A stretch of 64,000 nucleotides of DNA from a virus. Positions 43,428 through 56,786 of the stretch are shown here, piece after piece; the stretch's first letter is position 1, and every line of letters begins with the position of its first letter. The position numbers were made by a program, and so were the translations under genes. The notes beneath the pieces were generated by a model. That model was given only the letters and a program-made list of their open reading frames with translations, did not search any database and was not told where the DNA came from. The stretch lies in the IMG/VR virus record IMGVR_UViG_3300045988_115142; one strand, written 5' to 3'.

Positions 43428-43583
43428 ATTAAAATTACACCTCCTTAAAAAAATAAAATTATTCTATATAGAATACGAGAAAATAGTAAACTTGAAAATT
43501 TTTCGAAGATACTCTTCTCTTCTATATTATGAAGTTCAGAGATTTTAACACCCTTTTGGAAGGAAAAAAATAAGGGAAGATTT

Positions 43584-43609: not shown

Positions 43610-44638
43610 GTGGAATTTATTATAAATTTTGCGTTCAATTTCTTTAAGCTCGCATTGTTGCATGAATCTCTTTTCCATACTTCCAATTTCACCTAAATTA
43701 ACAGCTGGACATTCAAAACAGTTGACGTTTTTACAACCTTTAGAACAACCAACTTCTTTGTTCAACTCCATTTCTAATTCTTTAGTTTTATTGAAGTCGA
43801 TACCAGATTTTAAATTACCAATCTTCCATTGTGTGGTCACATATATATTATCATCAGGAACAAACATACCGCAAGGGTATAGATCTCCATTCTTATCGAT
43901 ATGGAGATGAGAACCAAGATGACTACATTTAGAAGCTTCGGATGTTTCTTTATCTGAGTTATATTTAAGAGATTCCCAGTTTATATATCTGAATGAGAAG
44001 AAGCTATATATTCTAGCAACCTTTTCAAACATTTTCTTGCATTTATATATAAACCATTCATCTCTATACAATGGATATTCCATTATATAATACAACTCAA
44101 TAGATTTAGCTCCTCTAGATAGTAAAGCAAGCATAGATTCTTCAATGAATTCTACATTCTTTAGATGTATAGCTATCCTAACTGTTACATTAGGACATTC
44201 TTTGATTATACTATAGATAGCATTATTCACAAAGCCATTGTCATAACAAGACTTACGAATATACTTACTATACTTACCATCCCAGCTTACTTTTACTAAC
44301 TCTTCGTCTAGATATCCGTCTTTAATTAATTCAATTAAAGAATTGAAATATAGACCATTAGTGGTTAGACCAAATCTAAAGTGAACGTCTTTTGTTCTTT
44401 CTAGTTTTCTTATTTCTTTTATCATACGTTTAATACTATCAGAATAGATTAAAGGTTCTCCACCTATAAACTTTACATCTAAAGTATCTCCAGTAGGTAA
44501 ATCTTGTAAGAAATTTTTAAGATCATCGATATCAGTAAATACTCCTTCAGAGACTCCTTCTCCTTGGAAACAATAGTCACAACACATGTTGCATTTATCA
44601 GATACCTTGATCATGATAGATTTGAAGTTATCAAACAC
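43598..44638 (-). CDS. radical SAM / SPASM-domain protein (rSAM-D, 346 aa)
   Basis: GTG start overlapping the upstream stop (GTGTTTGA). It has CNMCCDYC (CX3CX2C) at residues 16-23, a GGEP motif, and C-terminal DLYPCGMF ... CSKGCKNVNCFECPA (SPASM-like Cys cluster). Confidence 0.8.
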   Translation of the reverse strand: MFDNFKSIMIKVSDKCNMCCDYCFQGEGVSEGVFTDIDDLKNFLQDLPTGDTLDVKFIGGEPLIYSDSIKRMIKEIRKLERTKDVHFRFGLTTNGLYFNSLIELIKDGYLDEELVKVSWDGKYSKYIRKSCYDNGFVNNAIYSIIKECPNVTVRIAIHLKNVEFIEESMLALLSRGAKSIELYYIMEYPLYRDEWFIYKCKKMFEKVARIYSFFSFRYINWESLKYNSDKETSEASKCSHLGSHLHIDKNGDLYPCGMFVPDDNIYVTTQWKIGNLKSGIDFNKTKELEMELNKEVGCSKGCKNVNCFECPAVNLGEIGSMEKRFMQQCELKEIERKIYNKFHGVG

Positions 44639-44975
44639 CTACGATCTCTCCAATCACTAAATTCTTCATATATTGATCGAAAGAGCTAAAGTTATAGAAG
44701 TCTACAGAGGTGAAAGTATTATCATAAACCGAATCAACCATATTTATTTCATCTATAGTTACTAGGTTATTATAATTCTTATACACATTTGTATTTACTT
44801 CTTGGAATAGAATACTATCGCTAAATAACTTAGCTCCAAAGTGATTAATAAGAGTTTGGTTATATCTCTTGATAATCTCTTTTAAAATTAACTCGTTTTC
44901 GAAGTTAAGGTTACAATGAATATTAATAGTTTTATCTACGTTCTTTACATAAACGACTAAATTTATAAATTCCAT
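44631..44975 (-). CDS. hypothetical small protein between two radical SAM genes (114 aa)
   Basis: Translationally coupled on both sides. No motif recognised. It may be an rSAM partner or substrate. Confidence 0.6.
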   Translation of the reverse strand: MEFINLVVYVKNVDKTINIHCNLNFENELILKEIIKRYNQTLINHFGAKLFSDSILFQEVNTNVYKNYNNLVTIDEINMVDSVYDNTFTSVDFYNFSSFDQYMKNLVIGEIVGV

Positions 44976-44978
44976 ATT

Positions 44979-46139
44979 TTATCTATCTCTCGCTATCCAA
45001 CTAGGCATCCTGTTAGTTACTTCAGGATCATTAACAAAATTTAATCTACCTAAGATCTTTTTTGTTTGTTGCTCTGTAAGAGCTGGTGCTAGAGTTTCGA
45101 ATATATCACTTTCAAGTTTCTTGAAAGGATGAATATAACAACCCAACCCCTTATGTCTTGTGTAATAAAGCATCGCTGGACACTTATTACAATGGTATTG
45201 ATTACATCCACTACAACCATTATCCCATTCGGTGTAATCTTTGACAAACTTTTGCATTTTGTCATAATCAATACCGTCTTTTACTGTACCAATAATGAAG
45301 TTTTGTTTAAAATTTTCACTAAAAAGAGAACAAGGGTATACATCCCCTGGGGTAGTGACATAAATCATTTTTCCTAAGATCTCACATCCCAAATCGAACG
45401 GTTTCCCTGCGTTTAGAGCACGAGTATAATATAAATAGTTCCAATTTTCATAATCAAATGGTTCGTTATTATATAACTCTGCTATCTTAATAGCTTGGAC
45501 TTTAAACTTCTTGAGAAGTTCTTCATCATGGTAATACATTGGGTCTTCTTTAAGATATAGAGGATAATACTCTATCTTATTACAACCACAATCTCTTGCA
45601 TACTTAACGGAATCGTATAAGTCATCTACTGTTTCATGAGTAAGTGCTATTCTAAGTAAAATATCATTACGATATTTACTTGCCCCAAGTTTAGCTACTT
45701 GATCTCTAAAGAATTGATCATCATATTGGTGTAATTTAGAAAATCGAACTTTTGATGCGGAATATAAACCATCCCAAGACATCTTCATAGACCAAGAGTC
45801 TAATACATTATCATCTAGTAATTCAAAGATACCATCTAAGTTAGTACCATTTGTTACAGTAGATGCAATGACTCTTGTATCTTTATATCGTTCGATCTTC
45901 TTCATTTCCTTCATAAAAGATCTAATTTCATTACAGTATAGACTACATTCCCCGCCAGTAAGTTCAAAGTCTAATACTGGTCCGATATCCATAGTAAGCA
46001 ACAGTTTTCTAAGTTCCCTTGACTTATTAAATACATTAGATTTAGCCTTGGAATCTCTATCAGAGATAATACAATAGCTACAATCTAAGTTACAAAAGCT
46101 ACAGAACTTAATAAGCACATATTTTATAGTATCAAACAT
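44979..46139 (-). CDS. radical SAM / SPASM-domain protein (rSAM-C, 386 aa)
   Basis: CNLDCSYC (CX3CX2C), a GGE motif, and C-terminal DVYPCSLF ... CSGCNQYHCNKCPA. The N-terminus MFDTIKYVLIK is paralogous to MFDNFKSIMIK in rSAM-D. Confidence 0.8.
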   Translation of the reverse strand: MFDTIKYVLIKFCSFCNLDCSYCIISDRDSKAKSNVFNKSRELRKLLLTMDIGPVLDFELTGGECSLYCNEIRSFMKEMKKIERYKDTRVIASTVTNGTNLDGIFELLDDNVLDSWSMKMSWDGLYSASKVRFSKLHQYDDQFFRDQVAKLGASKYRNDILLRIALTHETVDDLYDSVKYARDCGCNKIEYYPLYLKEDPMYYHDEELLKKFKVQAIKIAELYNNEPFDYENWNYLYYTRALNAGKPFDLGCEILGKMIYVTTPGDVYPCSLFSENFKQNFIIGTVKDGIDYDKMQKFVKDYTEWDNGCSGCNQYHCNKCPAMLYYTRHKGLGCYIHPFKKLESDIFETLAPALTEQQTKKILGRLNFVNDPEVTNRMPSWIARDR

Positions 46140-46141
46140 GG

Positions 46142-47290
46142 TTATTCTACCGTTATATGCTTAAGATTTTCTAGATAGAAGTTATTCTTAAAGAAAGAAT
46201 CACAATCTTCTAGAGTACGGGATTCTACTACACCATTAAATGGATTTGTAGATACATCAGAACCTAATCTATCCGATAGAATAAACTCTTTATCTGTATC
46301 AGAAAGATATTTGATCTTAATATCTCTCATATAGTCACAGTAATCAGTGAGTTTAAGATATTTACGAATAAGGATAGCATACATAGCATGATTAGACTTA
46401 TCATAATAGCTTAACCCACGAAGAGTATTTTCTATATAATATAGAGAATCATTAATGTAATCTACAATAGTAGAAGTCATATGATGGAATGCTGTAAAAT
46501 CACCTTTGAATAGATATAGGTTATTTATAGTATCCATATATGATAATACAGAGAAACTGCAGTTATAGTATTGGAAAGATTTTTCATTTACAATACCATT
46601 TACTCTACCCAATAGATTAAGAATCTCTTGACTAGGTAATTTAGGGTTATTAACCATTACAGTTTGTACTGCTTCTAGATATGCTTCTAAGAAAGAGTTT
46701 TCGAAGATATCTGTATCATCATATACATTCAATTCATCTAATAATTGTAATGCTTGGTCTGCAAAAGATTTATCCCATTTCATATCAACGAAATTAATCT
46801 TAGTAGCAATTACATACAACTTAGCATGCATATATTTTAACCAAATATATTTAGAAAGATTCATCTCTTTCTTTTCTTCTAAACTAGTAGACTCAAATAA
46901 GTTTACATAAGGTTTCATATATTCGGTATATGTACCATCTTCATATGATTTATTAAGGATATTAGATAATAAGAAGAATTTATTTTCATAATCATAGACT
47001 TCAGAATTACCAGTTTCATACTTAACAATCATTTCTTGTTTAGAATACTTACCATTGTTGATTTTGTATTCTTCAATATAATTAGGTTTGTCTTTGAAGA
47101 AAGTTTCGATAAGTTTATCTAGTTTAATTCCTAGAGCTTTGATTTCATCATTATCTACCCAGTTAGTAGTGATAGCATGTTCAAATGTATTCTTCTCTGT
47201 ATAGATATCTTCCATTTGTTCAGAGATATCGATAAAATCTTGATTATCTTTAATTTCATCATAAAGACGTTCTGGTAAATAAAGGATCAT
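46142..47290 (-). CDS. hypothetical, predicted mostly helical protein (382 aa)
   Basis: GAAAGGAAGGA RBS. Its stop is 2 nt before the rSAM-C start, so they form an operon. No family recognised. Confidence 0.7.
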   Translation of the reverse strand: MILYLPERLYDEIKDNQDFIDISEQMEDIYTEKNTFEHAITTNWVDNDEIKALGIKLDKLIETFFKDKPNYIEEYKINNGKYSKQEMIVKYETGNSEVYDYENKFFLLSNILNKSYEDGTYTEYMKPYVNLFESTSLEEKKEMNLSKYIWLKYMHAKLYVIATKINFVDMKWDKSFADQALQLLDELNVYDDTDIFENSFLEAYLEAVQTVMVNNPKLPSQEILNLLGRVNGIVNEKSFQYYNCSFSVLSYMDTINNLYLFKGDFTAFHHMTSTIVDYINDSLYYIENTLRGLSYYDKSNHAMYAILIRKYLKLTDYCDYMRDIKIKYLSDTDKEFILSDRLGSDVSTNPFNGVVESRTLEDCDSFFKNNFYLENLKHITVE

Positions 47291-47325
47291 TTATCTATCC
47301 TTCCTTTCGGAGACAAAAAATAAAA

Positions 47326-47347
47326 GAGGGGTGTATTTCTACACCCC
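47326..47347 (-). terminator. hairpin aggggtgta-tttc-tacacccct
   Basis: GC-rich 9-bp stem followed by cttttatttttt on the minus strand, 7 nt after the stop of 47355..47693. Confidence 0.75.
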
Positions 47348-47354
47348 TGTTTAT

Positions 47355-47693
47355 TTAATCTGCAAACTTGCAAATACTTTCAGCATCTATATGATCTTTA
47401 ACCCAGATTTGATAGGTCTCTTTGTTGATAAGATGTCTGATGTATTTCTCAATAGAGCATGCTTCTAAAAAGCCTCGATTAGTTTCCCATATGATATTAC
47501 GAATATCTAATTCATCTTGGTCTATAACTTCGATTCTAAAAAGAATATTTGGGTTTTCTTTATACCACATTTTACCATGTATTAAGATAGATTCTTCTAT
47601 TCTTTTTAAAGCAGTATCTAACTCTTTTTCTTTTATATCTCTGATAGAGAATTCAAGACGTTCTAATTTTTTGTAGATATTAATAGTAAACAT
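47355..47693 (-). CDS. hypothetical small protein (112 aa)
   Basis: GAGGAG RBS. It lies 23 nt downstream of the SLH-bearing adhesin gene with no intervening terminator. Confidence 0.65.
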   Translation of the reverse strand: MFTINIYKKLERLEFSIRDIKEKELDTALKRIEESILIHGKMWYKENPNILFRIEVIDQDELDIRNIIWETNRGFLEACSIEKYIRHLINKETYQIWVKDHIDAESICKFAD

Positions 47694-47716
47694 ACAAAGC
47701 TCCTCTTTTTCTTAGT

Positions 47717-50347
47717 CTATTTTACAATTGTACCATAGTTGTCACGAGTATTGTCTTTATTAACACGTACACGTTCAACTTTATTAACAGCACCATCTTT
47801 ACCAGATAGACGATCTACACGGAAATGCATACCACTTCGTACTGTATCTAGTTCAACTTTGAATTCTTTGATAGCACGACCCATTTCTGGATGCATATAA
47901 CCAGCAGTAATAGCACGGTCTAAAGCTACTGCAAATTCATAGCGAGTTAAAGTAAGATCACCGTTGAAGTTTTTATCTGGATATCCAACGACAATACCTT
48001 TGTAAGCAAGATCTTGCACCATCATGTATGCCCAATGATTTTCTGGAACGTCAGGGAATACTACATCGGTAATTGCTTCATTACGACCCATAGCATGATC
48101 AATTAATGCATCGATCTTAGCATTTTGAGCGGCAACGATTGCACGAAGTTCTTCGATTTCCTTAGCCATAGCTACTTGTTTATTAGTATTCATTCTGGAA
48201 GATTTACCAAACTTCATGGATACACCAGCACCTACCATAGGTTCGCTACCAATAGTAGAAGATACTGTTACCATTGTGTTCTCATTAGGTTGATAAGCTA
48301 CACCGAGAGCACCGGCATTAGCACCTTTATAGTGACCATAACCTGCAGCGAAGCTCCATTTATCATCAGCATTGAAGTCTTGGTAATGTAAGTTAGCCAT
48401 AGCAGCAGCACGAGCACCAACTTTAGCTGTTTGAAGATCAGTATAATGGTTTGCTCTAGCTGTAGCAGCATTGGAAGTATTGTTAATACGATCGTTGATA
48501 TTCTTTTCAGTTTCACGTAATTGGTTAACGTTAACTGCATCAGTACCATCGATACCTTTATCAACGTTGATAATACGTTTACCGCCATTGTTTAATCCTT
48601 TATCTGTTAAGGAAATTTCATCAATAGGGTTTGCATCACCATCATTGGTTCTAATACGCATACCATCGTATTTGAAGCTAGTATGATATTCGCGATCAGT
48701 ACCACGGTAAGTCATATTAATACCTTCTGTTGTGTAAGAGGATTGACTATTTCCATCGTTTAAATTAACGGAATTAAGATCTCTTAAATCTTTAGATGTA
48801 GATACAGTGAAAGTACCATTATCTTCAGCAACTTCAATGTTGTCGCCAGCTTTTACGTATGTTTTATTTTCATTAACATAGCTTTTCAACTGTTTAACGT
48901 TAACTGCATCAGTATCTGCTACACCAGCTTTTACATTGTTGATGATTTGATCACCAGCACTGATACCATCTGTAGTGTAGTAAACTGTTTTATTACCTTC
49001 ACTAGCATACATACCAGTTTTGTCAAATTTTGCTTGATCTAATGTATCAGTATTTTCAATTTGAATACCATTTGATGTAACACCGATGTTTTCACTACCG
49101 TTGAAGAAACGAGCTCCATCTTTAGTAACAGTGGAACGTACATCATCGGTAGCTTTACCAAAGTTAACAGAATTCATTTCATTCAAATCTTTGTTTACAG
49201 CTACCTTATATTCAACACCACCAGCAGTATTTGTACCTGCAGTTACAGTTGTATTATCACCAGCAATTACAGAGGAATGTTTTTTAGCTTCTGTTTCAAC
49301 TACTTTTAACTGAGCTACATTAACTGCATCAGTATCTTCTGTACCAGCAGCTAAACCTGTTAGTTGACGAGTAACATTATTTTCTCTATCACCAACGGAT
49401 AAAGCACTCTTAGTAGATTTCCATGTAGCATCATCTTTACCTTCTGCTAAGTAACCAACTGTACCAGCTAATCTATCTGCTACACTATCGTCGCCTAATG
49501 CCATAGAACCAACACCAGTAGCTTTGGCTTTATTACCAATAGCAACTGCATAATCATTATCAGTTTTAGAATCCATACCAATAGCGATTGCACCATAACC
49601 ATTAGCTGTACCTTGAGCCATTGCTAAAGAGTACTTGCCATTAGCTGTAGAAGCACCACCGATAGCAGTAGCAGCGTAAGCTGTAGTAGATGCATGAGCA
49701 CCTAGAGAAACAGTGAAATAGTTATTAGTATTGGCTTTAGGACCAATTACGACAGATGCTCCTTTTCCAGCTTGAGCTAATTTAGCAGATGCACCTTCTC
49801 CCATGACAATGGACCACATTGCATTTTCAGCAATGATATCCCTACCATGAACCAAAGCACCATAGGAATTGGTTACATTGTTATGCTGACCCATTACAGT
49901 GGCGTGTGGAGAATTTTTAACTGTGATGTAATCCCCTTTAATCATGGTAGATCTGTCACCATACTTCTTAATGGATTCCTCATCATTTTCATTGGTAATG
50001 TGATTGCCAATCATAAGACCATAACTGGAATCTTTGATTTTTACTACATCACCAATTGCAATGTTTTCTACATTGCGACCAGATGGTGCAACTTCAGTAC
50101 CAGAGAAAATGTTATAAATATTGGTACCTGTATACTTGGACCATCCACCTAAGATGACATTATGTACTGTATTTTCATTTTTAGGTACTTCAGTATCTAC
50201 TTTTACATTACCTACAGTAGATACTAAATTGTAATTAGAACCTGCTGTATGATTATTTTCTAAAGTAATAATATTTTCTGCATTTGCACCAGCAGAAATA
50301 ACTGATAAAATAGCTGCAGTTAATAAAATTCTGTTGTTTGTTTTCAT
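47717..50347 (-). CDS. trimeric autotransporter adhesin (YadA-like) with post-anchor coiled coil and C-terminal SLH domain (876 aa)
   Basis: Signal peptide MKTNNRILLTAAILSVISAGANA; head repeats (AIAIG.DS.., AVAIGNKAKATGVGSMALG); three DTDAVNV.QL neck motifs. Anchor: ANLHYQDFNADDKWSFAAGYGHYKGANAGALGVAYQPNENTMV...GAGVSMKFG. Next come a coiled coil and FPDVPENHWAYMMVQDLAYKGIVVGYPD..F.GD..LTRYEFA (SLH, nt ~47925..48065). Confidence 0.85.
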   Translation of the reverse strand: MKTNNRILLTAAILSVISAGANAENIITLENNHTAGSNYNLVSTVGNVKVDTEVPKNENTVHNVILGGWSKYTGTNIYNIFSGTEVAPSGRNVENIAIGDVVKIKDSSYGLMIGNHITNENDEESIKKYGDRSTMIKGDYITVKNSPHATVMGQHNNVTNSYGALVHGRDIIAENAMWSIVMGEGASAKLAQAGKGASVVIGPKANTNNYFTVSLGAHASTTAYAATAIGGASTANGKYSLAMAQGTANGYGAIAIGMDSKTDNDYAVAIGNKAKATGVGSMALGDDSVADRLAGTVGYLAEGKDDATWKSTKSALSVGDRENNVTRQLTGLAAGTEDTDAVNVAQLKVVETEAKKHSSVIAGDNTTVTAGTNTAGGVEYKVAVNKDLNEMNSVNFGKATDDVRSTVTKDGARFFNGSENIGVTSNGIQIENTDTLDQAKFDKTGMYASEGNKTVYYTTDGISAGDQIINNVKAGVADTDAVNVKQLKSYVNENKTYVKAGDNIEVAEDNGTFTVSTSKDLRDLNSVNLNDGNSQSSYTTEGINMTYRGTDREYHTSFKYDGMRIRTNDGDANPIDEISLTDKGLNNGGKRIINVDKGIDGTDAVNVNQLRETEKNINDRINNTSNAATARANHYTDLQTAKVGARAAAMANLHYQDFNADDKWSFAAGYGHYKGANAGALGVAYQPNENTMVTVSSTIGSEPMVGAGVSMKFGKSSRMNTNKQVAMAKEIEELRAIVAAQNAKIDALIDHAMGRNEAITDVVFPDVPENHWAYMMVQDLAYKGIVVGYPDKNFNGDLTLTRYEFAVALDRAITAGYMHPEMGRAIKEFKVELDTVRSGMHFRVDRLSGKDGAVNKVERVRVNKDNTRDNYGTIVK

Positions 50348-50372
50348 TCGAAATGTCTCCTTTAATTAAAAA

Positions 50373-50396
50373 AAGAGCCTCAATTAAGAGGCTCTT
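50373..50396 (-). terminator. hairpin aagagcctc-aattaa-gaggctctt
   Basis: 9-bp stem followed by a T5 run on the minus strand, 13 nt after the stop of 50410..52209. Confidence 0.7.
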
Positions 50397-50409
50397 ATTT
50401 AAATATAAA

Positions 50410-52209
50410 TTATTTACCAGCTTTAAGCTCAGCCACTTCAGCAGTCAATTTATCTACTAAAGCTTCTAGTTTTTCAATTCGACTATCTTTGGATTTTGCT
50501 TCATTGATGTACTCAGAGCCTTTACCAGTTTTGAACGCTACACCCAAATTCATTTGAGGGTGTTTACCGAAGCTGATTGCACCGGAAATCATTGTTCTTT
50601 CGTTAGGACGGTAGAAAGCACCAACTGCTACAGCATTGGCATTTCTGTAATGACCAACGGATGCAGCATAGGAAGCTTTGTCATCTTTGTTGAAGTCCAA
50701 AGGATGCAAGCCAGCTAATGCTGCAGATTGAGCACCCACGTGTGCTACTTGGCTGTCAGTGTAGTTGTTAGCTTGATTAAGTGTATTGGAACCAACTTCG
50801 GCGATTTTGTTATTTAAATCACTTACTTTAGTATCAATCTTATTATCTAGATCAGATACTTTGATACCAATTTTGTTCGTTTCTTCGATAACAGAGTTCA
50901 ATTGGCTACCGTTTACAGCATCAGTAGAAGCTGTAGATACTCTACCAGCTGCTAGGTTAGTGATTGTACGTTCTTTACCAGCATCACCAATGGATACAGT
51001 ACCGATAGGATTGCTACCGGCAAATGTATGGGTATTACCATTGATTGTAGTAGATGCTGTACCAACTACAGTATCAGCATTGCTGTTATGACCAATAGCT
51101 ACAGATTCTTCTTTCACAACAGATGTATTATTACCGATAGCTACACTATAGTTAGCATTGCTGATTTGATTATCTGTACCAACCACTGTTACATGGTAAC
51201 TGTCTTGTGCAATGTTAGCATTGCCCATTACAGTATCGCCTTGTGGATCTTCCAAATGGTCACTATGTACAACATAGTTGTTACTGCCAACCATTGTGGA
51301 ATATTTACTTGCACCTTCATTAGATGTACCAATATTTACGGCATAAGTTCCTTCTGCAGAAACCATATGACCGATAGCCACAGAGCTAACACCTGTTGCA
51401 TTAGCGATAGAACCAACTGCTGTTGAGTTGTTACCTGCTTCATTACTGTTACCAATAGCTACACCATTGTCGAAAGTAGACTTACTGTGATCACCAACGA
51501 CAACACCACCAAAACTATTAGTGGAGCTATTATTACCAATAACGATACCATGACCGTTTGTATTTGTAATATCGGTACCGATACCAATACTACCTTTCTT
51601 ACCTGTTGTTACATTGTGACCAATAGCTAAGCTATTTTCTTCAGTGGCATTTGTTTGATTACCAATAGCGATAGAATTGTTAGCAGTGGCAATTGCTTCT
51701 TTACCGATAGCATATGTATTGTCGCCTTCTACTTTAGCATCTTCACCGAATACTAGTGAGTTTTTGCCTGTGAGTTTTGCTCTTTCGCCACCAGCGATAG
51801 AATTATCACTTCGGAAATCGATAGCATTATTATAACCAAATACTAATGTATTACTAGAGTGGCTAGCATTATAAATGCCACCAGCGATAGAATTATTCGC
51901 ATTCGTGATTGTATTATGGTCACCAGCCACTACAGAATTAGCTGAATTATTATTGTTACTAATACCGAAAGTTGCACTATTATGTGCATCAAGCTGAACA
52001 GTGTTATTTTCACCACCAGCAATAATATTAGTCAAATGACCGTGTGCTTGTGTAACATTTGTATCATGACCATAGATAATACTGTTTTTAACTGACTCGG
52101 CTACTGGATATTGACCAGTATGATAATCATGAGTAGTAGAATCTGCCGCCATAGCTGTAGTGGATAAGGTTGTCAATACCAAAGTTAGTAAAATTTTATT
52201 TGTTTTCAT
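50410..52209 (-). CDS. trimeric autotransporter adhesin (YadA-like) with post-anchor coiled coil (599 aa)
   Basis: Signal peptide MKTNKILLTLVLTTLSTTAMA and a long array of YadA-head-type repeats (NSIAIGNQ.., SVAIGH.., NSTAVGS..). Neck motif STDAVNGSQL. Anchor: LAGLHPLDFNKDDKASYAASVGHYRNANAVAVGAFYRPNERTMI...NLGVAFKTG, then RIEKLEALVDKLTAEVAELK. Confidence 0.85.
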   Translation of the reverse strand: MKTNKILLTLVLTTLSTTAMAADSTTHDYHTGQYPVAESVKNSIIYGHDTNVTQAHGHLTNIIAGGENNTVQLDAHNSATFGISNNNNSANSVVAGDHNTITNANNSIAGGIYNASHSSNTLVFGYNNAIDFRSDNSIAGGERAKLTGKNSLVFGEDAKVEGDNTYAIGKEAIATANNSIAIGNQTNATEENSLAIGHNVTTGKKGSIGIGTDITNTNGHGIVIGNNSSTNSFGGVVVGDHSKSTFDNGVAIGNSNEAGNNSTAVGSIANATGVSSVAIGHMVSAEGTYAVNIGTSNEGASKYSTMVGSNNYVVHSDHLEDPQGDTVMGNANIAQDSYHVTVVGTDNQISNANYSVAIGNNTSVVKEESVAIGHNSNADTVVGTASTTINGNTHTFAGSNPIGTVSIGDAGKERTITNLAAGRVSTASTDAVNGSQLNSVIEETNKIGIKVSDLDNKIDTKVSDLNNKIAEVGSNTLNQANNYTDSQVAHVGAQSAALAGLHPLDFNKDDKASYAASVGHYRNANAVAVGAFYRPNERTMISGAISFGKHPQMNLGVAFKTGKGSEYINEAKSKDSRIEKLEALVDKLTAEVAELKAGK

Positions 52210-52231
52210 TCGAAATTCCTCCTTAAAAAGT

Positions 52232-52253
52232 AAAGCCTCGATTAAGAGGCTTT
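52232..52253 (-). terminator. hairpin aaagcctc-gattaa-gaggcttt
   Basis: 8-bp stem nearly identical to the 50373..50396 hairpin, 11 nt after the stop of 52265..53779. Confidence 0.65.
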
Positions 52254-52264
52254 ATAAAGTATAA

Positions 52265-53779
52265 TTATTTATTTTCTAAAGCTTTATGAAGTTCTTGATT
52301 ATCTTTAAGCAACTTATCTACAATTGCTTTCAAATCATCAATTTCTTTTGCCATTTTTAATGGACTCTTATAAGTAGAACCTTTAGCTCCTACCTTATAC
52401 GATATACCGGCATTTACCATAGTATCTTTACCATTGATAGTAGTACCGAAAGTAACCATTGTATTTTCATTTGGTCTATGAGATACACCAAGTGCTACAG
52501 CAGTTTTACCTTTATAATGACCAACTCCAGCCATGATATCTGTCTTATGATCTGGGTTATAATCAAGTGGGTGTAAAGCTGCTAGAGCAGCTGCATTAGC
52601 ACCTACTTTAGCTACTTGCATATCCGTGTAATGGTTAGCTTGGTTAATGGTATTAGTAGCAATATCAGTAACTTTATTTTCTAAAGTTGTAATACGACCT
52701 TCATGATTACCTAATACTTCTTTATTTTTATCTACTTTAGCACTGATATCATTGATACGATTTTCATTTGTATCAATACGTTTAGAATTATCATTAACTT
52801 TATTTCCTACTTCTTTTAGTTGGCTTACGTTAACAGCATCGGTATCTTTTTCACCACGGCTAACATTGGTAATTTTCTTACCACCATTATTTAATCCATC
52901 AGCGGTTAAAGTGATTTCATCGATTGGTCGGGCATTACCATCATTAGTAGCGATACGAATTCCATTATAATTATAAGTAGTATTATATACAGGTTCTGTA
53001 CCATCACCACGGTGCACCATAGAAATACCTTCTGTTGTATAATGAGATTCATTATTACCGTCATTTAAATTAACAGAATTAAGATTTAAATCTTTATTCA
53101 TTGATACAGTATAGAAACCATCTTCACCATCGACTACAATGTTATCATCACCAGATTGTACAACAGTGTGTTTTTGGGCTTCCATCATAACATCATACAA
53201 TTGGCTACCATTAACAGCGTCTGTAGATTTAGCGGAAATTTCACCAGCACCTACATTTTGTAGTTGACGTGTGAAAACTCGGAATTTTGCTTCTGGTGTA
53301 GTACCTTTATCATAGAATGGTGCATAGCTGCTACCAATACTGAATACACCTTGATTTGTTTTTACGCCAGCATACTTACTATCAACTTTGTGCACATCAT
53401 CGTATGCCATACTATAAGCACCAATAGCTACAGATGCGTCGCCAAAAGATTGAGCAAGGTATCCAATTGCTGTACCTGCTCTAACATCTACTTTTGTATG
53501 ATCACCAATAGCGATATTCCCTTTATTTTCAGGGGAGAAGGAATATATCCCACTTGTTTCTTCTTCATTATAGGTACGAGCATGGGAATACACATGGTTA
53601 CCAATAGTTACAGATGAATATCCAGCAACATTATTAGAGTTACCGAGAACAATATTATTCTCACCTTCAACTTGATTTAAGTTACCAGATACTTGATTTG
53701 TAGTGTCTGCTGCGAAAGCAGTTGTGCCTAAAGATGCAATAATAGCTGTTGTTAATAAAAATTTGTTTGTTGTTTTCAT
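52265..53779 (-). CDS. trimeric autotransporter adhesin (YadA-like) with post-anchor coiled coil (504 aa)
   Basis: Signal peptide MKTTNKFLLTTAIIASLGTTAFA; head repeats; STDAVNGSQL and DTDAVNVSQL neck motifs. Anchor: LAALHPLDYNPDHKTDIMAGVGHYKGKTAVALGVSHRPNENTMV...NAGISYKVG, then EIDDLKAIVDKLLKDNQELHKALE. The stalk segment is paralogous to one in 47717..50347. Confidence 0.85.
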   Translation of the reverse strand: MKTTNKFLLTTAIIASLGTTAFAADTTNQVSGNLNQVEGENNIVLGNSNNVAGYSSVTIGNHVYSHARTYNEEETSGIYSFSPENKGNIAIGDHTKVDVRAGTAIGYLAQSFGDASVAIGAYSMAYDDVHKVDSKYAGVKTNQGVFSIGSSYAPFYDKGTTPEAKFRVFTRQLQNVGAGEISAKSTDAVNGSQLYDVMMEAQKHTVVQSGDDNIVVDGEDGFYTVSMNKDLNLNSVNLNDGNNESHYTTEGISMVHRGDGTEPVYNTTYNYNGIRIATNDGNARPIDEITLTADGLNNGGKKITNVSRGEKDTDAVNVSQLKEVGNKVNDNSKRIDTNENRINDISAKVDKNKEVLGNHEGRITTLENKVTDIATNTINQANHYTDMQVAKVGANAAALAALHPLDYNPDHKTDIMAGVGHYKGKTAVALGVSHRPNENTMVTFGTTINGKDTMVNAGISYKVGAKGSTYKSPLKMAKEIDDLKAIVDKLLKDNQELHKALENK

Positions 53780-53900
53780 TTTGAGATTCCTCCTATAAAA
53801 TTGAATAATAAAAACAAACTTAAAAACATAAGTTAGCCACTAATAACTTTTTCATGTACTCCTTTTAGTTATAAAACTTTACTAACTTATTCACAACTAT

Positions 53901-53931
53901 ATTATATCATTGATTTTTTTAATAATTACAA
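53901..53931 (-). promoter_or_regulatory. sigma70-type promoter with extended -10 (TGATATAAT) upstream of the first adhesin gene
   Basis: The minus strand reads TTGTAA-(19 nt)-TATAAT with TG at -15/-14. The -10 is at 53901..53906, the TG-extended element spans 53901..53909, and the -35-like hexamer is at 53926..53931. It lies just downstream of the rSAM-B stop. Confidence 0.5.
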
Positions 53932-53941
53932 AATAATTTAG

Positions 53942-55006
53942 TTAGAATTTATCGTTTGTATTAATACTTTCTAGTGGAGTAATATTATGCTCACGTTGAG
54001 TCCATGCTGTATAGTCTAAATATTTCTTAAGAAGTATTTTCTTTTCTTCAGGAGTTAATGAAGCTAAGAAGTTCTTAATGGTTTTACCGAATATCTTAGT
54101 TATACGACATGTGCAATCTAAATAATGGTTCTCCCAGTCATCACCGAACTTCTCATAACGTTCATATCGACAACCACCATCACAGATTGCTCCAAATTCA
54201 CATTTTTGACAATCTTCATGTTTACATCTACGCTGAGCTCTAGTATCATCTAATCGAACTAGTTGTTGACTCATAGCAGTACAGTTATTTTGAATACCTT
54301 CTGGAGATATTGTAGTATATTTACCAATATCACAACTACAGAAACTACGATCTTGCCTTAACCATGCTCCAATCTTATTTAAATGCTCTACATAGAGCTT
54401 ATCTAAATCGAATGTATAAGGCAATTGTTTCTCTAGTTCTTCATAGAAGTCTTCAGAATAGTTTTCACCATGAGCAATAACGAATTCACCATTAGCTTTA
54501 CCAGGATATTTTGTATCGTATTTAAGAGCTTTGAAATGATCATGTATTTCTTTAAGTTTATAAATATTCTCGTTATTTACTACAGTCTTAATATCGAATG
54601 TAATACCTTGCTCCAAAGCATATTCAATATTAGCATTAACTTTTTCTGCAATAGAATTACCATGTATATCAACACGGCTAGTAGTAAATCCATCCCAAGA
54701 TAGTTGTACTTCGTTAAGTTTATATTGTTTATGGAATTCAATAAATTCTTTAAAGTTAGCCATAGTAGATGTGACTACTTGGAATTTACATTTTCCATAG
54801 TATTTCTTAACCGTATATTCAATTAAGTCTAATCGAAGGAGAGGCTCACCTCCAAAGAATATAATCCTTGAAGGTTTAAGCTCTTCCATGTATTTATCAA
54901 TCTGCTCTATAGTCATATCCTTAGAATGGAAGTCTATATAACAGTACTTACAACGATTAGGACAATTATTGGTTAAGAAGAAGAAATATTCTCTATAATT
55001 ATCCAT
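53942..55006 (-). CDS. radical SAM / SPASM-domain protein (rSAM-B, 354 aa)
   Basis: CPNRCKYC (CX3CX2C) at residues 15-22, an FFGGEPLL motif, and C-terminal CQKCEFGAICDGGC (canonical SPASM CX2CX5CX3C). Confidence 0.85.
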   Translation of the reverse strand: MDNYREYFFFLTNNCPNRCKYCYIDFHSKDMTIEQIDKYMEELKPSRIIFFGGEPLLRLDLIEYTVKKYYGKCKFQVVTSTMANFKEFIEFHKQYKLNEVQLSWDGFTTSRVDIHGNSIAEKVNANIEYALEQGITFDIKTVVNNENIYKLKEIHDHFKALKYDTKYPGKANGEFVIAHGENYSEDFYEELEKQLPYTFDLDKLYVEHLNKIGAWLRQDRSFCSCDIGKYTTISPEGIQNNCTAMSQQLVRLDDTRAQRRCKHEDCQKCEFGAICDGGCRYERYEKFGDDWENHYLDCTCRITKIFGKTIKNFLASLTPEEKKILLKKYLDYTAWTQREHNITPLESINTNDKF

Positions 55007-55023
55007 AGAATCTCCTATAAGAA

Positions 55024-56352
55024 TTAAGACATACCACAGTTTTGGTTATGACATGTATTAGAATAACAACCTTGGCAAGATAACTGACAAGTAGATTGAC
55101 AGTGGGTTTGACATGTGATATTACAATATCCATTATCATCCCACCAGTTGTTATATGTGTCAAGTTGTTGAGAAATTCTACGAAGATATTCAGCAATCAA
55201 TGCCCATTTAGAAGCATATACTGTTTCACCAGCATTTACATGCTCAATTGTAAAGTTTGTAGTTGGGTCAGAGACTGCTTTAGTAACACGACGTAGTGTA
55301 TTATTACAGATTTGAACTGTAGTAGCATCTTCTTGAGTGGCAATACGGAAACCGTGTAAAATAGAACGGTTTTCACAAGCTGTGGAAGAATTCGCTGGAT
55401 CGTAGTTAAGTGTACAAATACGAGCGTCTTGTTTTAATACAGCTTCCATGTTTACAACAGCTTGGAATTTCACATTATAAATAGTTTCAGCTTCTGTAAA
55501 TACAGGTACTGTTTTATCAGTATTTGCAATTTCAGCGTATGAATGGTTATGGTCTGCTGTTTCTTTAATAGAAGCTCGTTCAATTGAATATACAGTGCTA
55601 CCTACAGTAACAGCAAACCCAGACATATCTTCAGGGAAATCAGATAATTGATTTTCAAATACGATAAAGTTACTTGGATTACCGACTTTAGTAGCAGTAT
55701 CTGTAGTACCATTATATGCTTGAGCTGTTAATAAACCAATTACTTTAAAATCTTTAGTAATATTTCTACCAATGTAATGAATAGTATTGCCAGGCATATT
55801 GCCGAAATGTTCTACTTCTGCACCAGAAATAGATTTAGCGATTCTAGCATCCATATTGGAATAACCAGATACTCTAATACCTTGACCAGAAGCTGTAGTA
55901 TATTTAACAAGCTTAGAATCTAGATTAGTACTCAATACAGGAGAAGTGCCTACACCTGCATCTAGAGGAACGATCTTTTCATTTCTCCAGTAAGTACATT
56001 CTTCACGTACTTCTACTGTATTAATAGGTGCAATGGTTCTAACCAAGTCAGCTGTAGTATCGATAATAAGGTTTACATCATTAGCTTTAAGAGTACCATC
56101 TTCTTCATTTACAGAACGTTGAGCTTCTTGAAGACGTCTTTCTAAATCTGTATTTTCAATACCACTTAATTGAGCATAACGAGTACCAGTCTTTTCTTGC
56201 CAAGGATGTTCTTTAGCACGTTTAATGGAATCTCGTTCATTTAAGTTAGTTAGAATAATATCAATAATAGAGCTAAAATAAGTTCTACCTGGGAATGTCC
56301 CTTTATTAGGTTTTCTAGCTTCTACATAAATGACTTTATGTCTATTAGCCAT
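55024..56352 (-). CDS. 442-aa protein of unknown fold ending in a SCIFF/ranthipeptide-like Cys-rich tail
   Basis: AGGAGA RBS. The last 36 aa are NGYCNITCQTHCQSTCQLSCQGCYSNTCHNQNCGMS, with 8 Cys spaced CX3CX3CX3CX3CX2CX4CX4C (nt ~55027..55134). Radical SAM/SPASM genes lie on both sides. Confidence 0.8.
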   Translation of the reverse strand: MANRHKVIYVEARKPNKGTFPGRTYFSSIIDIILTNLNERDSIKRAKEHPWQEKTGTRYAQLSGIENTDLERRLQEAQRSVNEEDGTLKANDVNLIIDTTADLVRTIAPINTVEVREECTYWRNEKIVPLDAGVGTSPVLSTNLDSKLVKYTTASGQGIRVSGYSNMDARIAKSISGAEVEHFGNMPGNTIHYIGRNITKDFKVIGLLTAQAYNGTTDTATKVGNPSNFIVFENQLSDFPEDMSGFAVTVGSTVYSIERASIKETADHNHSYAEIANTDKTVPVFTEAETIYNVKFQAVVNMEAVLKQDARICTLNYDPANSSTACENRSILHGFRIATQEDATTVQICNNTLRRVTKAVSDPTTNFTIEHVNAGETVYASKWALIAEYLRRISQQLDTYNNWWDDNGYCNITCQTHCQSTCQLSCQGCYSNTCHNQNCGMS

Positions 56353-56363
56353 AATATTCTCCT

Positions 56364-56786
56364 TTATTTTCTAGCAAATTTATCTTCATCCGTTATATAA
56401 AGATCTATACGGATTTCTTTATTTGTTATACGTCGATATACCTCTTTACCGAATATAGATAAAATAAAGTATTCTAATATTTCTTTAGCCTTATCTTTAT
56501 CTATATTATTTATCTTATTAAAAGTAAGATTAATACCAACGTTAGTCGATGTCTTTACATCACTATACCCATCTTGGTCTGGGAAGTTTACAAAAGCAGA
56601 GCTTAAAGTAGAGAATTCATCTTCTTTTACTTTATATTGGATATCGTAAGTATTAGAAGTCAATCTAACTATTTTACAACTATATCCTGCTATATTTGTA
56701 ATTCTATCCAAACCAATAGAAATAGTCCAAGTACTAGGAGAATATAATTCACATTCTACACGCTTTACAGCATTTTCAGAATCCAT
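56364..56786 (-). CDS. hypothetical 140-aa protein in the rSAM cassette
   Basis: Its ATG overlaps the stop of rSAM-A (TAATG). No motif recognised. It could be a chaperone or adaptor for the modification. Confidence 0.65.
   Translation of the reverse strand: MDSENAVKRVECELYSPSTWTISIGLDRITNIAGYSCKIVRLTSNTYDIQYKVKEDEFSTLSSAFVNFPDQDGYSDVKTSTNVGINLTFNKINNIDKDKAKEILEYFILSIFGKEVYRRITNKEIRIDLYITDEDKFARK

What the first reader, a model, noticed from the sequence alone, without database searches (positions are those of the whole stretch)
47717..53779. Three tandem trimeric autotransporter adhesin genes of the Negativicutes type inside a phage structural region
Seen in sequence: three consecutive ORFs of 504, 599 and 876 aa. 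Each has a Sec signal peptide, YadA-type head repeats, DAVN..QL necks and a four-strand YadA anchor (..LHPLD(Y/F)N.D.K...GHY(K/R)...A(V/L)G(V/A).(H/Y)RPNE.TM..). After the anchor each continues with a coiled coil, and the third also has a clear SLH domain (FPDVPENHWAY...). Established knowledge: a periplasmic coiled-coil/SLH extension after the anchor is characteristic of Veillonella and other Negativicutes trimeric autotransporters, where SLH domains tether the outer membrane to modified peptidoglycan. Inference: these are host-type outer-membrane adhesins carried by a phage. They cannot be virion parts in the usual sense because they need Sec and BAM. They therefore look like morons or lysogenic-conversion genes that could alter aggregation, biofilm formation or receptor accessibility, for example by superinfection exclusion or by adsorbing free virions. 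They also point strongly to the host lineage.
Basis: partly seen in the sequence, partly recalled or inferred. Interest (0 to 1): 0.8.

Follow-up and report, generated by a model that had tools for sequence, protein, structure and literature searches.

The report
Jumbo phage carries swappable adhesin genes
A common ~255-kb phage of the human mouth, probably infecting Veillonella, carries a fast-changing island of two to four complete bacterial-type outer-membrane adhesin genes, so it most likely re-dresses the surface of the cell it infects.

Summary
Three minus-strand ORFs (504, 599 and 876 aa) are complete trimeric autotransporter adhesins (TAAs). Each has a Sec-type signal peptide, YadA stalk and YadA_anchor hits above Pfam thresholds, and a periplasmic coiled coil. 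The third also has an SLH domain with the WAY/TRYE peptidoglycan-binding motifs.

The contig is not a chimera. The same junctions recur in more than 20 independent assemblies of a circularly permuted 254-257 kb jumbo phage, which is distantly related to Bacillus and Staphylococcus jumbo myoviruses.

New findings:
- The TAAs lie in a hypervariable island (about 47567-53849). It holds 2-4 TAA genes in strains whose flanks are 96-100 % identical.
- Heads vary and are shuffled, while anchors are 86-99 % conserved. dN/dS is 0.11-0.26.
- More distant relatives have the flanking radical-SAM genes adjacent, with no TAAs at this site, so the island is a moron-like insertion.
- A TAA-specific terminator hairpin travels with the genes, even into phages with unrelated flanks.
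- The nearest cellular homologues are Veillonella TAAs.

I found no sign of lysogeny. The most likely role is Sec/BAM-exported adhesins on the infected cell. Whether they serve adhesion/aggregation or exclusion of other phages is unresolved. The closest precedents are the prophage Eib TAAs and lambda Lom. I rate this a new variant of a known kind.

The parts
53901..53931 (-). Promoter-like element just downstream of the rSAM gene stop: TTGTAA (53931-53926), 19-nt spacer, TGATATAAT (53909-53901).
   Evidence: Read directly from the sequence. The position and the TTGTAA box are conserved in six relatives, where the -10-like box is TATATT without TG and precedes the s113 gene. The tool's sigma-70 scan did not list it because it allows spacers of 16-18 nt only. 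Function is untested.
53820..53855 (-). 11-codon stub (MKKLLVANLCF*) with its ribosome-binding site. It is the scar of an ~0.9-kb deletion that removed two small island genes (s113, s147) present in all relatives.
   Evidence: Window 60000..53849 aligns to L003 153..6314 and window 53824..42000 aligns to L003 7194..19014. L003 and L007 carry 113-115 aa and 147 aa ORFs in that gap.
52265..53779 (-). TAA1, 504 aa: signal peptide (1-23, AFA|A), weak head, two necks/stalks, YadA anchor (407-461), 37-aa periplasmic coiled coil. Anchor type A.
   Evidence: dN/dS is 0.14-0.20 against L003 and L004.
52231..52254 (-). Terminator-like hairpin (9-bp stem, core GCCTCTTAATCGAGGC) plus T-run, followed by AAGGAGG and the TAA2 start.
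   Evidence: 2 matches in the window against 0.02 expected by chance. The same hairpin follows TAA genes in relatives and in phage L025, whose flanks are unrelated.
50410..52209 (-). TAA2, 599 aa: signal peptide (AMA|A), long YadA-head repeat region, one neck, anchor (507-556), 33-aa periplasmic coiled coil. Anchor type B.
   Evidence: Across 10 strain variants the anchor shows 99 % mean pairwise identity and the head 63-86 %, and nine of the ten lack a ~150-aa head segment that the window copy has. dN/dS is 0.11.
50373..50396 (-). Second copy of the terminator-like hairpin (core GCCTCTTAATTGAGGC) plus T-run, followed by AAGGAG and the TAA3 start.
47717..50347 (-). TAA3, 876 aa: signal peptide (ANA|E), YadA-type head, three necks/stalks, anchor (659-713, nt 48209-48373), short coiled coil, SLH domain (764-806, nt 47930-48058) with WAY and TRYE motifs. 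Anchor type C.
   Evidence: PDB sequence matches: AtaA 3wp8, SadA 2yo0 and YadA 1p9h for the head; SLH-domain proteins 8bys, 8bym and 8bz2 for residues 754-868. dN/dS is 0.17-0.26.
47355..47693 (-). h112, a 112-aa protein with no signal peptide and no family hit. The right-hand boundary of the variable island lies inside it: the N-terminal ~45 aa vary and the C-terminal half is conserved.
   Evidence: (similarity to L007 resumes at window 47567). The gene is absent in L004/L125 and L122.
47327..47348 (.). Bidirectional terminator-like hairpin (AGGGGTGTAGAAATACACCCCT) that closes the island.
53942..55006 (-). Conserved left flank: radical SAM enzyme (354 aa). It is 98-100 % identical in all strains of this phage and 46-47 % identical in the TAA-less relatives L139 and L140.
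46142..47290 (-). Conserved right flank: h382, an unknown protein that is 96.6-99.7 % identical across strains. Two h382-like genes lie one radical-SAM gene downstream of the rSAM_53942 homologue in L139 and L140.

Best explanation
**What it is.** The three genes are full-length type Vc (trimeric autotransporter) adhesins. They belong to an accessory, hypervariable island in a ~255-kb jumbo phage that is probably virulent and infects a Negativicutes host, most likely oral Veillonella.

**Proposed mechanism**
1. During infection the island is transcribed from a promoter-like element downstream of the radical-SAM gene. Hairpins after each gene terminate or attenuate transcription. This step is inferred from sequence.
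2. Each product is exported by Sec through its signal peptide. Its 4-strand anchor is inserted as a 12-strand trimeric barrel by the host BAM machinery, and the passenger is displayed on the cell surface. This follows from established TAA biology, given that every defining domain is present.
3. The periplasmic coiled coil stabilises the protein. The SLH domain of TAA3 binds the polyamine-modified peptidoglycan that is peculiar to Negativicutes. This is by analogy with V. parvula VtaA and VtaG.
4. The exposed heads, which vary and are shuffled between strains, change what the infected cell sticks to. This step is inferred.

**Preferred reading of the benefit.** I favour adhesion or aggregation. 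The infected cell is held in the tongue or plaque biofilm and against susceptible neighbours during a long jumbo-phage latent period, which raises local transmission. Blocking adsorption of other phages is the main alternative and may coexist with this.

**Confidence.** About 0.85 that these are exported outer-membrane proteins made in the infected cell. About 0.45 for adhesion/aggregation as the selected benefit.
For: **All defining TAA domains are present**
- Pfam hits are above the curated cut-offs, and PDB sequence matches include AtaA, SadA, YadA, UspA1 and SLH-domain proteins.
- Among the large proteins of the window, only these three have Sec-type N-termini.
- The periplasmic domains are 33-37 aa coiled coils or 158 aa with SLH. 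This matches the two classes described for Negativicutes TAAs, including the WAY/TRYE motifs.

**The genes are functional, not decaying**
- They are intact in every assembly examined.
- dN/dS is 0.11-0.26, against 0.00-0.14 in L003 and up to 0.41 in L004 for the neighbouring genes.
- Anchors are 86-99 % conserved while heads show 63-71 % identity in their most variable parts, with indels.

**It is an accessory island**
- Twelve strains with complete islands, each with >=98 % identical rSAM_53942, carry 2, 3 or 4 TAAs in different allele combinations. None lacks them.
- L007 shows head/anchor recombinants of the window genes.
- The related phages L139 and L140 have the flanking genes adjacent with no TAA at this site.

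**The genes move as cassettes**
- The hairpin GCCTCTTAATYGAGGC occurs only directly after TAA genes, including in L025, whose flanks are unrelated.
- Anchor types are shared at 86-96 % identity between phages whose nearest common flank gene is only 37 % identical.

**Phage identity and independent replicon**
- Phage hallmark genes and distant jumbo-phage homology.
- The assemblies are circularly permuted at 254-257 kb.
- All of the top 120 homologues lie on contigs of 310 kb or less.

**Host link**
- Four of the five cellular hits are in Veillonella MAGs, including a chromosomal adhesin cluster. The fifth is a mis-binned phage fragment.
- Phage TAAs share 65-70 % nucleotide identity over 0.5-1.1 kb with Veillonella chromosome contig L029.

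**Functional precedent**
- V. parvula TAAs mediate autoaggregation, coaggregation and biofilm formation (PMC7549365).
Against: - There are no expression, localisation or phenotype data.
- Timing of expression (early or late) is unknown.
- Hypervariable islands in phage populations usually encode receptor-binding proteins, and the island lies a few kb from fibre-like genes. A virion role therefore cannot be excluded from sequence alone.
- Head diversification fits an arms race (exclusion of rival phages) as well as it fits adhesion.
- The host assignment rests on homology and on the taxonomic restriction of the SLH-type domain, not on a CRISPR spacer or an isolate.
- The signal peptides were judged by eye and with a crude hydrophobicity screen.
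Confidence: 0.5

Rival explanations
1. Superinfection exclusion or receptor masking is the selected function. The phage-made TAA layer sterically hides the phage's own receptor, or that of rival phages, on the infected cell and on lysis debris. This resembles T5 Llp masking FhuA, or the surface-modifying clusters of other jumbo phages.
For: - Strain-level hypervariability and shuffling of the exposed heads, with conserved anchors, is what an arms race predicts.
- Several tandem paralogues are present.
- A review of jumbo phages describes polymorphic surface-modifying gene clusters, interpreted as pre-empting attachment of other phages (PMC7824862 section 3.4.10).
- The precedent of phage-encoded outer-membrane proteins such as T5 Llp is from my own knowledge.
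Against: - No receptor is known.
- Steric masking would not obviously need diversified YadA-type heads.
- TAAs of Veillonella have documented adhesive roles and no documented shielding role.
- This reading is not mutually exclusive with adhesion.
Confidence: 0.25
2. The genes act in lysogenic or pseudolysogenic conversion. The phage persists in the cell as a prophage or carrier-state episome, and the TAAs benefit the carrier bacterium through colonisation or immune evasion, as the Eib TAAs of E. coli prophages do.
For: - EibD is listed as a product encoded by a temperate phage (PMC8065619 table).
- Pseudolysogeny is discussed for jumbo phages.
- The terminators and promoter-like element fit moron-style autonomous expression.
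Against: - The scan of 185,579 species-representative genomes found no integrated copy. The best cellular hits are <=63 % identical.
- All 120 top homologues lie on contigs of 310 kb or less, clustered at 250-285 kb.
- Assemblies are circularly permuted.
- The nearest cultured relatives are jumbo myoviruses of Bacillus and Staphylococcus.
- No integrase or repressor was seen in the 64-kb window. The remaining ~190 kb of the genome was not inspected.
Confidence: 0.1
3. The proteins are virion fibres. They would be YadA-domain structural proteins like those detected in cyanophage particles, and the island would be a host-range (receptor-binding) module.
For: - YadA-domain structural proteins have been found by mass spectrometry in phage virions (PMC9146016).
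- The island is hypervariable like receptor-binding loci, and lies 4-5 kb from giant fibre-like genes on the same strand.
Against: - Every copy in every strain keeps a cleavable-looking signal peptide, a YadA_anchor barrel segment and a periplasmic domain, and these are its most conserved parts. That makes no sense for a cytoplasmically assembled fibre.
- There is no similarity to the N-terminal adaptor families shared by the window's fibre-like proteins.
- tblastn with the full TAA3 found no phage record in INPHARED. The only two records matched are mis-filed Salmonella genome contigs, and they match the head region only.
Confidence: 0.05
4. Artefact: a chimeric assembly that joins Veillonella chromosome to phage DNA, or a mis-classified bacterial contig.
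For: - The TAA genes have somewhat higher G+C than their immediate flanks: 34.5-38 % against 27-35 %.
- Their nearest cellular relatives are bacterial.
Against: - Identical junctions appear in independent assemblies from ENA, JGI/IMG-VR and Logan.
- Third-position G+C is the same as in flanking phage genes: 0.17-0.24 against 0.16-0.30.
- The nearest Veillonella TAAs are only 41-56 % identical in the anchor.
- Phage hallmark genes are present in the same window.
Confidence: 0.01

Closest known systems
Veillonella parvula trimeric autotransporters VtaA-VtaI, especially the short SLH-bearing VtaG (Bechon et al. 2020, PMC7549365; Dorison et al. 2026, bioRxiv 10.64898/2026.01.22.700529)
   Same: - The architecture is the same: signal peptide, YadA head, neck and stalk, YadA anchor, then a periplasmic coiled coil (<100 aa) or a short coiled coil plus SLH with WAY/TRYE motifs.
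- The size class matches VtaG (576 aa).
- The nearest cellular homologues are Veillonella TAAs: 62-63 % identity over TAA3 residues 267-523 and 44 % over anchor plus SLH.
   Different: - They are encoded by a jumbo phage, not the chromosome.
- Anchors are only 41-56 % identical to the Veillonella TAAs retrieved, and they form phage-specific types (A-E) shared among phages.
- They are arranged as a strain-variable tandem cassette in which each gene has its own hairpin.
- They lack the extended signal peptide and the ~3000-aa passengers of VtaA, VtaE and VtaF.
Eib immunoglobulin-binding TAAs of E. coli prophages (EibA/C/D/E/F/G; Sandt et al. 2002 as cited in PMC8065619)
   Same: Complete TAAs carried by phage genomes as accessory (moron-type) genes and displayed on the host outer membrane. 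This is the clearest precedent for a phage-borne TAA.
   Different: - Eib genes sit in temperate lambdoid prophages of a proteobacterium, as single genes. From my own knowledge, Eib proteins lack a periplasmic domain.
- Here the carrier is a ~255-kb phage with no sign of lysogeny and a diderm Firmicute host. It holds 2-4 tandem genes with modular shuffling and Negativicutes-specific coiled-coil/SLH tails.
- No sequence-level relationship was tested beyond shared Pfam domains.
Other phage-encoded outer-membrane proteins: lambda Lom and Bor (PMC8065619) and T5 Llp (own knowledge)
   Same: They are made by the phage, exported into the host envelope, are not part of the virion, and alter adhesion, serum resistance or receptor availability.
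   Different: They belong to different protein families (8-strand barrel, lipoproteins), occur as single genes, and are not hypervariable.
YadA-domain virion structural proteins of cyanophages and other phages (PMC9146016)
   Same: They share YadA-type head/stalk repeats and are found in variable 'islands' of phage genomes.
   Different: Those proteins are detected in virions. The proteins here carry a signal peptide, membrane anchor and periplasmic domain, which are their best-conserved parts. I did not inspect the cyanophage sequences, so the statement that they lack an anchor is from my own knowledge.
OmpM, the SLH-bearing outer-membrane tether of Negativicutes (PDB 8bys/8bym/8bz2, deposited as 'S-layer homology domain-containing protein')
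   Same: TAA3 residues 754-868 match the N-terminal ~130 residues of these chains, which include the SLH domain, at E = 1e-8 to 6e-8. The domain is periplasmic and binds peptidoglycan.
   Different: In OmpM the SLH domain is N-terminal to a porin barrel. Here it is C-terminal to a TAA anchor. That these PDB entries are OmpM is from my own knowledge.

Membership tests
Trimeric autotransporter adhesin (type Vc secretion) | N-terminal Sec signal peptide | tested here: met
   All three have a basic n-region, a hydrophobic core and an AxA cleavage motif. A hydrophobicity screen flags them, one 236-aa protein and one membrane protein among 48 window ORFs. No dedicated predictor was run.
Trimeric autotransporter adhesin (type Vc secretion) | Passenger built of YadA-type head repeats, necks and coiled stalk | tested here: met
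   YadA_stalk is above the cut-off in all three. YadA_head is above the cut-off in TAA2 and TAA3 and below it in TAA1 (17.5 against 25 bits). PDB sequence matches include AtaA, SadA, YadA, UspA1 and BpaC.
Trimeric autotransporter adhesin (type Vc secretion) | C-terminal YadA-like membrane anchor (four beta-strands per monomer) | tested here: met
   PF03895 scores 58.7, 34.1 and 40.4 bits against a cut-off of 22.7. TAA2 residues 471-551 match the YadA anchor 2lme, and residues 474-569 match 9gh4.
Trimeric autotransporter adhesin (type Vc secretion) | Homotrimerisation and BAM-dependent surface display | not testable with these tools
   This needs a multimer model or an experiment.
Negativicutes-type TAA with periplasmic domain | Extension after the anchor: either a short coiled coil (<100 aa) or a short coiled coil plus SLH (>100 aa) | tested here: met
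   Tails are 37, 33 and 158 aa. Heptad a/d hydrophobicity is 0.54-0.60 against 0.07-0.17 elsewhere. SLH scores 34.4 bits. The classes are as defined in bioRxiv 10.64898/2026.01.22.700529.
Negativicutes-type TAA with periplasmic domain | SLH motifs WAY and TRYE, which were mutated to impair peptidoglycan binding in VtaG | tested here: met
   TAA3 reads ENHWAYMM and LTRYEF. The motifs are as described.
Phage moron (accessory gene unit inserted between genes that are adjacent in related phages) | Absent from the same site in related phages | tested here: met
   L139 and L140 have rSAM_53942 (46-47 % identity), then another rSAM, then two h382-like genes, then an rSAM_44979-like gene, with no TAA between them.
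Phage moron (accessory gene unit inserted between genes that are adjacent in related phages) | Own promoter and terminator | tested here: inconclusive
   Terminator-like hairpins follow TAA1, TAA2 and h112. A promoter-like TTGTAA..TATAAT element is conserved in position. These are consensus matches only and there are no transcription data.
Lysogenic-conversion gene | Carried by a temperate phage found integrated in host genomes | tested here: not met
   No near-identical copy was found in 185,579 species-representative genomes. Contigs are <=310 kb, cluster at 250-285 kb and are circularly permuted. About 190 kb of the genome was not inspected for an integrase.
Virion fibre with YadA-type domains | No export signals, plus an N-terminal module that attaches the fibre to the tail or baseplate | tested here: not met
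   A signal peptide and an anchor are present in every copy. There is no similarity to the adaptor families shared by the window's fibre-like proteins.

The most novel reading that the evidence does not exclude
The phage uses host-type adhesins as cell-level host-capture devices. The infected cell is made to stick to the biofilm and to still-uninfected Veillonella or partner species, so that the burst lands on new hosts. The island then evolves like a receptor-binding locus, with shuffled heads, conserved anchors and cassette exchange between co-infecting jumbo phages. That would amount to a virus manipulating bacterial social behaviour to aid its own transmission in the human mouth.
Probability: 0.3. 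Interest if true: 0.85.

Novelty: new variant of a known kind. Interest (0 to 1): 0.6.

Why it matters
**Where it is found**
- This phage is common. Its TAA3 cluster has 103 member sequences and a structural-protein cluster has 415.
- Contigs come from many human-microbiome datasets.

**What is unusual**
- Phage-borne outer-membrane adhesins are known from temperate coliphages. They are not known from jumbo phages or from phages of diderm Firmicutes. Full-text searches and two jumbo-phage reviews gave no such report.
- Here the adhesins are present in every strain examined, yet strain-variable, which points to strong ongoing selection on what the infected cell's surface binds.

**Why it is useful**
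- Veillonella is a bridging coloniser of oral biofilms, and its TAAs drive aggregation and coaggregation. A phage that swaps these in and out could alter biofilm architecture and phage transmission.
- It gives a host-lineage marker, the SLH-type periplasmic domain, for an uncultured phage clade.
- It offers natural head/anchor chimeras for studying TAA modularity.
- V. parvula is genetically tractable, so the hypotheses can be tested directly.

Tried and rejected
- **Megablast of window 40-62 kb against 50,697 phage records:** no match. No sequenced relative is close enough for annotation transfer.
- **tblastn of TAA3 against the phage collection:** only two mis-filed Salmonella genome records, matching the head only.
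- **Whether the more distant TAA-bearing contigs (L005-L027) belong to the same phage family:** unresolved.
  - Their 10-kb flanks share nothing with the window apart from one radical-SAM gene at 32-37 % identity.
  - A profile scan with a conserved virion protein returned 80 other jumbo contigs but none of them.
- **Host identification through NCBI-sourced relatives:** cluster members and encoding contigs carried no organism names.
- **Third-position G+C as a test for recent acquisition from the host:** not discriminating. Phage TAAs are 0.17-0.24 and Veillonella TAAs 0.24-0.30.
- **Pfam and PHROGs on the small island genes (s113, s147, h112) and on the radical-SAM partners:** no family.
- **My first reading that TAA3 is 62 % identical to a Veillonella TAA over residues 267-864:** rejected. 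The 62 % holds only for residues 267-523, and anchor plus SLH is 44 %.
- **The 'Solobacterium' MAG hit as a host clue:** rejected. It is a mis-binned fragment of an L009/L014-type phage, with 84 % nucleotide identity over 6.7 kb.
- **SLH-mediated outer-membrane detachment as a lysis aid:** considered and set aside, because the SLH-bearing TAA is present in only one island type.
- **Not run:** structure prediction and fold search, because Pfam and PDB sequence matches already settled family membership.

Full report
**1. The observation**

The window holds three consecutive minus-strand ORFs at exactly the stated coordinates: 52265-53779 (504 aa, TAA1), 50410-52209 (599 aa, TAA2) and 47717-50347 (876 aa, TAA3).

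- Pfam places YadA_stalk and YadA_anchor above the curated cut-offs in all three.
- YadA_head is above the cut-off in TAA2 and TAA3, and below it in TAA1.
- An SLH domain is found in TAA3 residues 764-806 at 34.4 bits against a cut-off of 20.8.
- All three begin with a basic n-region, a hydrophobic core and an AxA site. Of 48 ORFs in the window, a crude screen flags only these three, one 236-aa protein and one membrane protein.
- After the anchor come tails of 37, 33 and 158 aa with a heptad pattern.
- TAA3's SLH keeps the WAY and TRYE motifs that were mutated to impair peptidoglycan binding in V. parvula VtaG.
- PDB sequence searches hit AtaA, SadA, YadA, UspA1 and BpaC for the passengers. 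They hit the YadA anchor and SLH-domain proteins 8bys, 8bym and 8bz2 for the C-terminal parts.

**2. It is a phage, and not a chimera**

- The window also encodes a head maturation protease, several 'virion structural' and tail-fibre-like proteins, and giant DUF285/LRR proteins.
- A 514-aa virion protein has distant homologues (24-31 % identity) in Bacillus phage BpSp (255.6 kb) and in the 259-274 kb Staphylococcus jumbo phages S6, MarsHill, Machias and others.
- The exact TAA3 protein is found on six contigs. The one shown is a 256,756-bp ENA contig.
- IMG/VR holds many contigs with the same gene order.
- All 120 best homologues of TAA3 lie on contigs of 310 kb or less, mostly 250-285 kb.
- In four full-length contigs (253.9-256.8 kb) the radical-SAM gene that flanks the island lies at quite different coordinates. 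In three of them both that gene and the virion gene were located, and the distance between them is always 47-49 kb. In one contig that distance wraps around the contig ends. The genome map is therefore circular or terminally redundant and about 255 kb long.

**3. The island**

tblastn and blastn of the window against relatives show flanks at 96-100 % amino-acid identity and about 96-97 % nucleotide identity. Between the radical-SAM gene at 53942-55006 and h382 at 46142-47290 the content differs from strain to strain.

Twelve relatives have a complete island and an rSAM gene at least 98 % identical to the window's:
- Seven carry two TAAs.
- Four carry three TAAs, as the window does.
- One carries four TAAs.
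- None lacks TAAs.
- An SLH-bearing TAA occurs only in the window-type island.

L007 shows how new alleles arise:
- Its first gene is the TAA1 passenger on a different anchor.
- Its second is the TAA3 head on a different stalk and anchor with a coiled-coil tail.
- Its third is a new head on the TAA1 anchor.
- Its fourth is TAA2 with a head deletion.
- Heads and anchors therefore recombine within genes.

Other measures:
- Along alignments of ten alleles, mean pairwise identity is 63-71 % with many indels in the heads, and 86-99 % in the anchor and periplasmic tail.
- dN/dS against two close strains is 0.11-0.26 for the TAAs. For the neighbours it is 0.00-0.14 against L003 and up to 0.41 against L004. 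The TAAs are under purifying selection, somewhat relaxed or mixed.

The island also holds two small genes upstream (113-130 aa and 100-149 aa). This window has lost them through a deletion of about 0.9 kb that leaves an 11-codon stub. The variable region ends inside a 112-aa gene downstream.

**4. The island is an insertion**

Two more distant jumbo-phage contigs keep the surrounding module in the same order: L139 (248.6 kb) and L140 (231 kb). The order is rSAM_56786 (45 % identity), the 442-aa protein with a Cys-rich tail, rSAM_53942 (46-47 %), another rSAM, two h382-like genes and an rSAM_44979-like gene. No TAA lies between them. This meets the positional criterion for a moron.

- Each of TAA1 and TAA2 is followed by a 9-bp-stem hairpin plus T-run, and a bidirectional hairpin follows h112.
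- The hairpin core GCCTCTTAATYGAGGC occurs twice in the window, against 0.02 expected by chance.
- Among 150 fetched loci, it occurs only immediately after TAA genes. This includes L025/L026, a phage whose flanks share nothing with this one.
- Gene plus hairpin thus behaves as a transferable cassette.
- Upstream, a TTGTAA...TATAAT-like element is conserved in position.

**5. Spread among phages, and relation to the host**

TAA genes with the same anchor types occur in at least two other genomic contexts:
- L005/L009/L014/L027-type contigs of up to 267 kb.
- L025-type contigs of 195 kb.

Anchors fall into types:
- Type A is TAA1, type B is TAA2 and type C (with SLH) is TAA3. Types D and E are seen in L007.
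- The types are 42-59 % identical to one another, and 30-56 % identical to Veillonella chromosomal TAAs.
- The same type is 86-96 % identical between phages whose only shared flank gene is 32-37 % identical. This points to exchange of TAA modules among phages.
- Whether these phages form one family with the window phage was not resolved.

The genome-collection scan returned five hits:
- Four are in uncultured Veillonella MAGs.
- L028 is a chromosomal adhesin cluster with a classical autotransporter, a TAA, an inverse autotransporter and a 932-aa TAA-SLH.
- The fifth, labelled Solobacterium, is a mis-binned fragment of an L009/L014-type phage.
- TAA3 is 62-63 % identical to the Veillonella TAA-SLH over residues 267-523 and 44 % over anchor plus SLH.
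- L029 shares 65-70 % nucleotide identity over 0.5-1.1 kb with phage TAAs.

According to Dorison et al., SLH-type periplasmic domains in TAAs are found only in Negativicutes. Taken with the 30-38 % G+C and what appear, from my own reading of the IMG dataset numbers, to be mostly human-microbiome (HMP-type) samples, Veillonella is the most likely host. This is inferred and not proven.

**6. How it most likely works**

Shown:
- All parts needed for Sec export, BAM insertion and surface display are present, conserved and under purifying selection.
- The exposed heads are the variable parts.
- The unit is accessory but always present in this phage.

From established TAA biology:
- The products will be trimeric lollipop- or fibre-like adhesins in the outer membrane of the infected cell.
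- The coiled-coil tail is needed for stability, and the SLH binds modified peptidoglycan.

Inferred: the phage changes the adhesive properties of the infected cell.
- I favour adhesion or aggregation: retention in the biofilm and contact with new hosts. Veillonella TAAs do exactly this (PMC7549365).
- Exclusion of other phages is the main alternative. It is in line with the polymorphic surface-modification clusters of other jumbo phages.
- A virion role is unlikely given the export signals and the lack of any shared adaptor with the window's fibre-like proteins. Only proteomics can exclude it.
- Lysogenic conversion lacks support.

**7. Comparison with what is known**

- The proteins are members of the TAA family and of its Negativicutes subtype. 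All sequence-testable defining features are met.
- The system works like the prophage-borne Eib TAAs of E. coli and like lambda Lom and Bor.
- It differs from those in five ways:
  - The carrier is a ~255-kb phage related to virulent jumbo myoviruses.
  - The host is a diderm Firmicute.
  - The genes form a tandem array of 2-4.
  - Modules are shuffled between strains.
  - TAA-specific cassettes are shared among phages.
- Full-text searches found no report of phage-borne TAAs in Veillonella or of YadA-type proteins in jumbo phages. Two jumbo-phage reviews mention neither autotransporters nor adhesins.

**8. Verdict**

The added value is the hypervariable, modular, moron-like island that is present in every strain of this phage examined.

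- Novelty: new variant of a known kind.
- Interest: 0.6.

Noticed in passing
window 43598-47290 and 53942-58189 (also L139 and L140): Four radical SAM/SPASM-type enzymes (467, 354, 386 and 346 aa) are interleaved with unknown proteins. One of these is a 442-aa protein (55024-56352) ending in a Cys-rich tail, CNITCQTHCQSTCQLSCQGCYSNTCHNQNCGMS. The module and the Cys-rich tail (58 % identity over residues 410-440) are conserved in distant jumbo phages that have no TAAs at this site. It looks like a RiPP-like or thioether cross-linking system acting on a large phage protein. No family hit was found for the partner proteins.
   Followed up: partly
window 9929-22313: Four paralogous DUF285/BspA-type leucine-rich-repeat proteins (344, 420, 1737 and 1014 aa) lie in tandem, none with a signal peptide. 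They are probably a multi-fibre receptor-binding arsenal.
   Followed up: partly
window 31788-34146 and 34174-42690: Fibre-like proteins share similar N-terminal sequences: 31788/33250 in one group, and 34174/36660/34504/37252 in another. The 1812-aa ORF (37252-42690) has internal repeats of 43-54 % identity, and it differs by up to 14 % between otherwise near-identical strains.
   Followed up: no
L003 6314-7138; L007 8980-9807; the deleted site in the window at 53820-53855: Two small island genes lie upstream of the first TAA in all relatives: s113, with a C..C and CxxC motif, and s147. They are themselves hypervariable (43-100 % identity) while the flanks are 96-100 % identical. The window has lost them through a deletion of about 0.9 kb. 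They match no family.
   Followed up: partly
window 11943-12653 and 8808-9449: Two other proteins have export-like N-termini. One is a 236-aa protein with a clear signal peptide and no family hit. The other is a 213-aa DUF7338 membrane protein.
   Followed up: no
L030 (CALISH010000016.1, 'uncultured Solobacterium sp.' MAG): This 16-kb MAG contig is a fragment of an L009/L014-type jumbo phage, with 84 % nucleotide identity over 6.7 kb. It is a binning error in a public genome of a monoderm genus.
   Followed up: yes
L028 1-12000 (Veillonella MAG CABSJL010000009.1): This chromosomal adhesin cluster combines a classical autotransporter, a 461-aa TAA, an inverse autotransporter and a 932-aa TAA-SLH next to an IS-type integrase. 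It is a possible source or sink for exchange with the phage TAAs.
   Followed up: partly
window 61802-63742 (+): At about 60 kb the coding strand switches. The plus-strand genes include a 646-aa protein with weak beta-propeller-type hits (NHL, SGL, Vgb_lyase-like). Its role is unknown.
   Followed up: no
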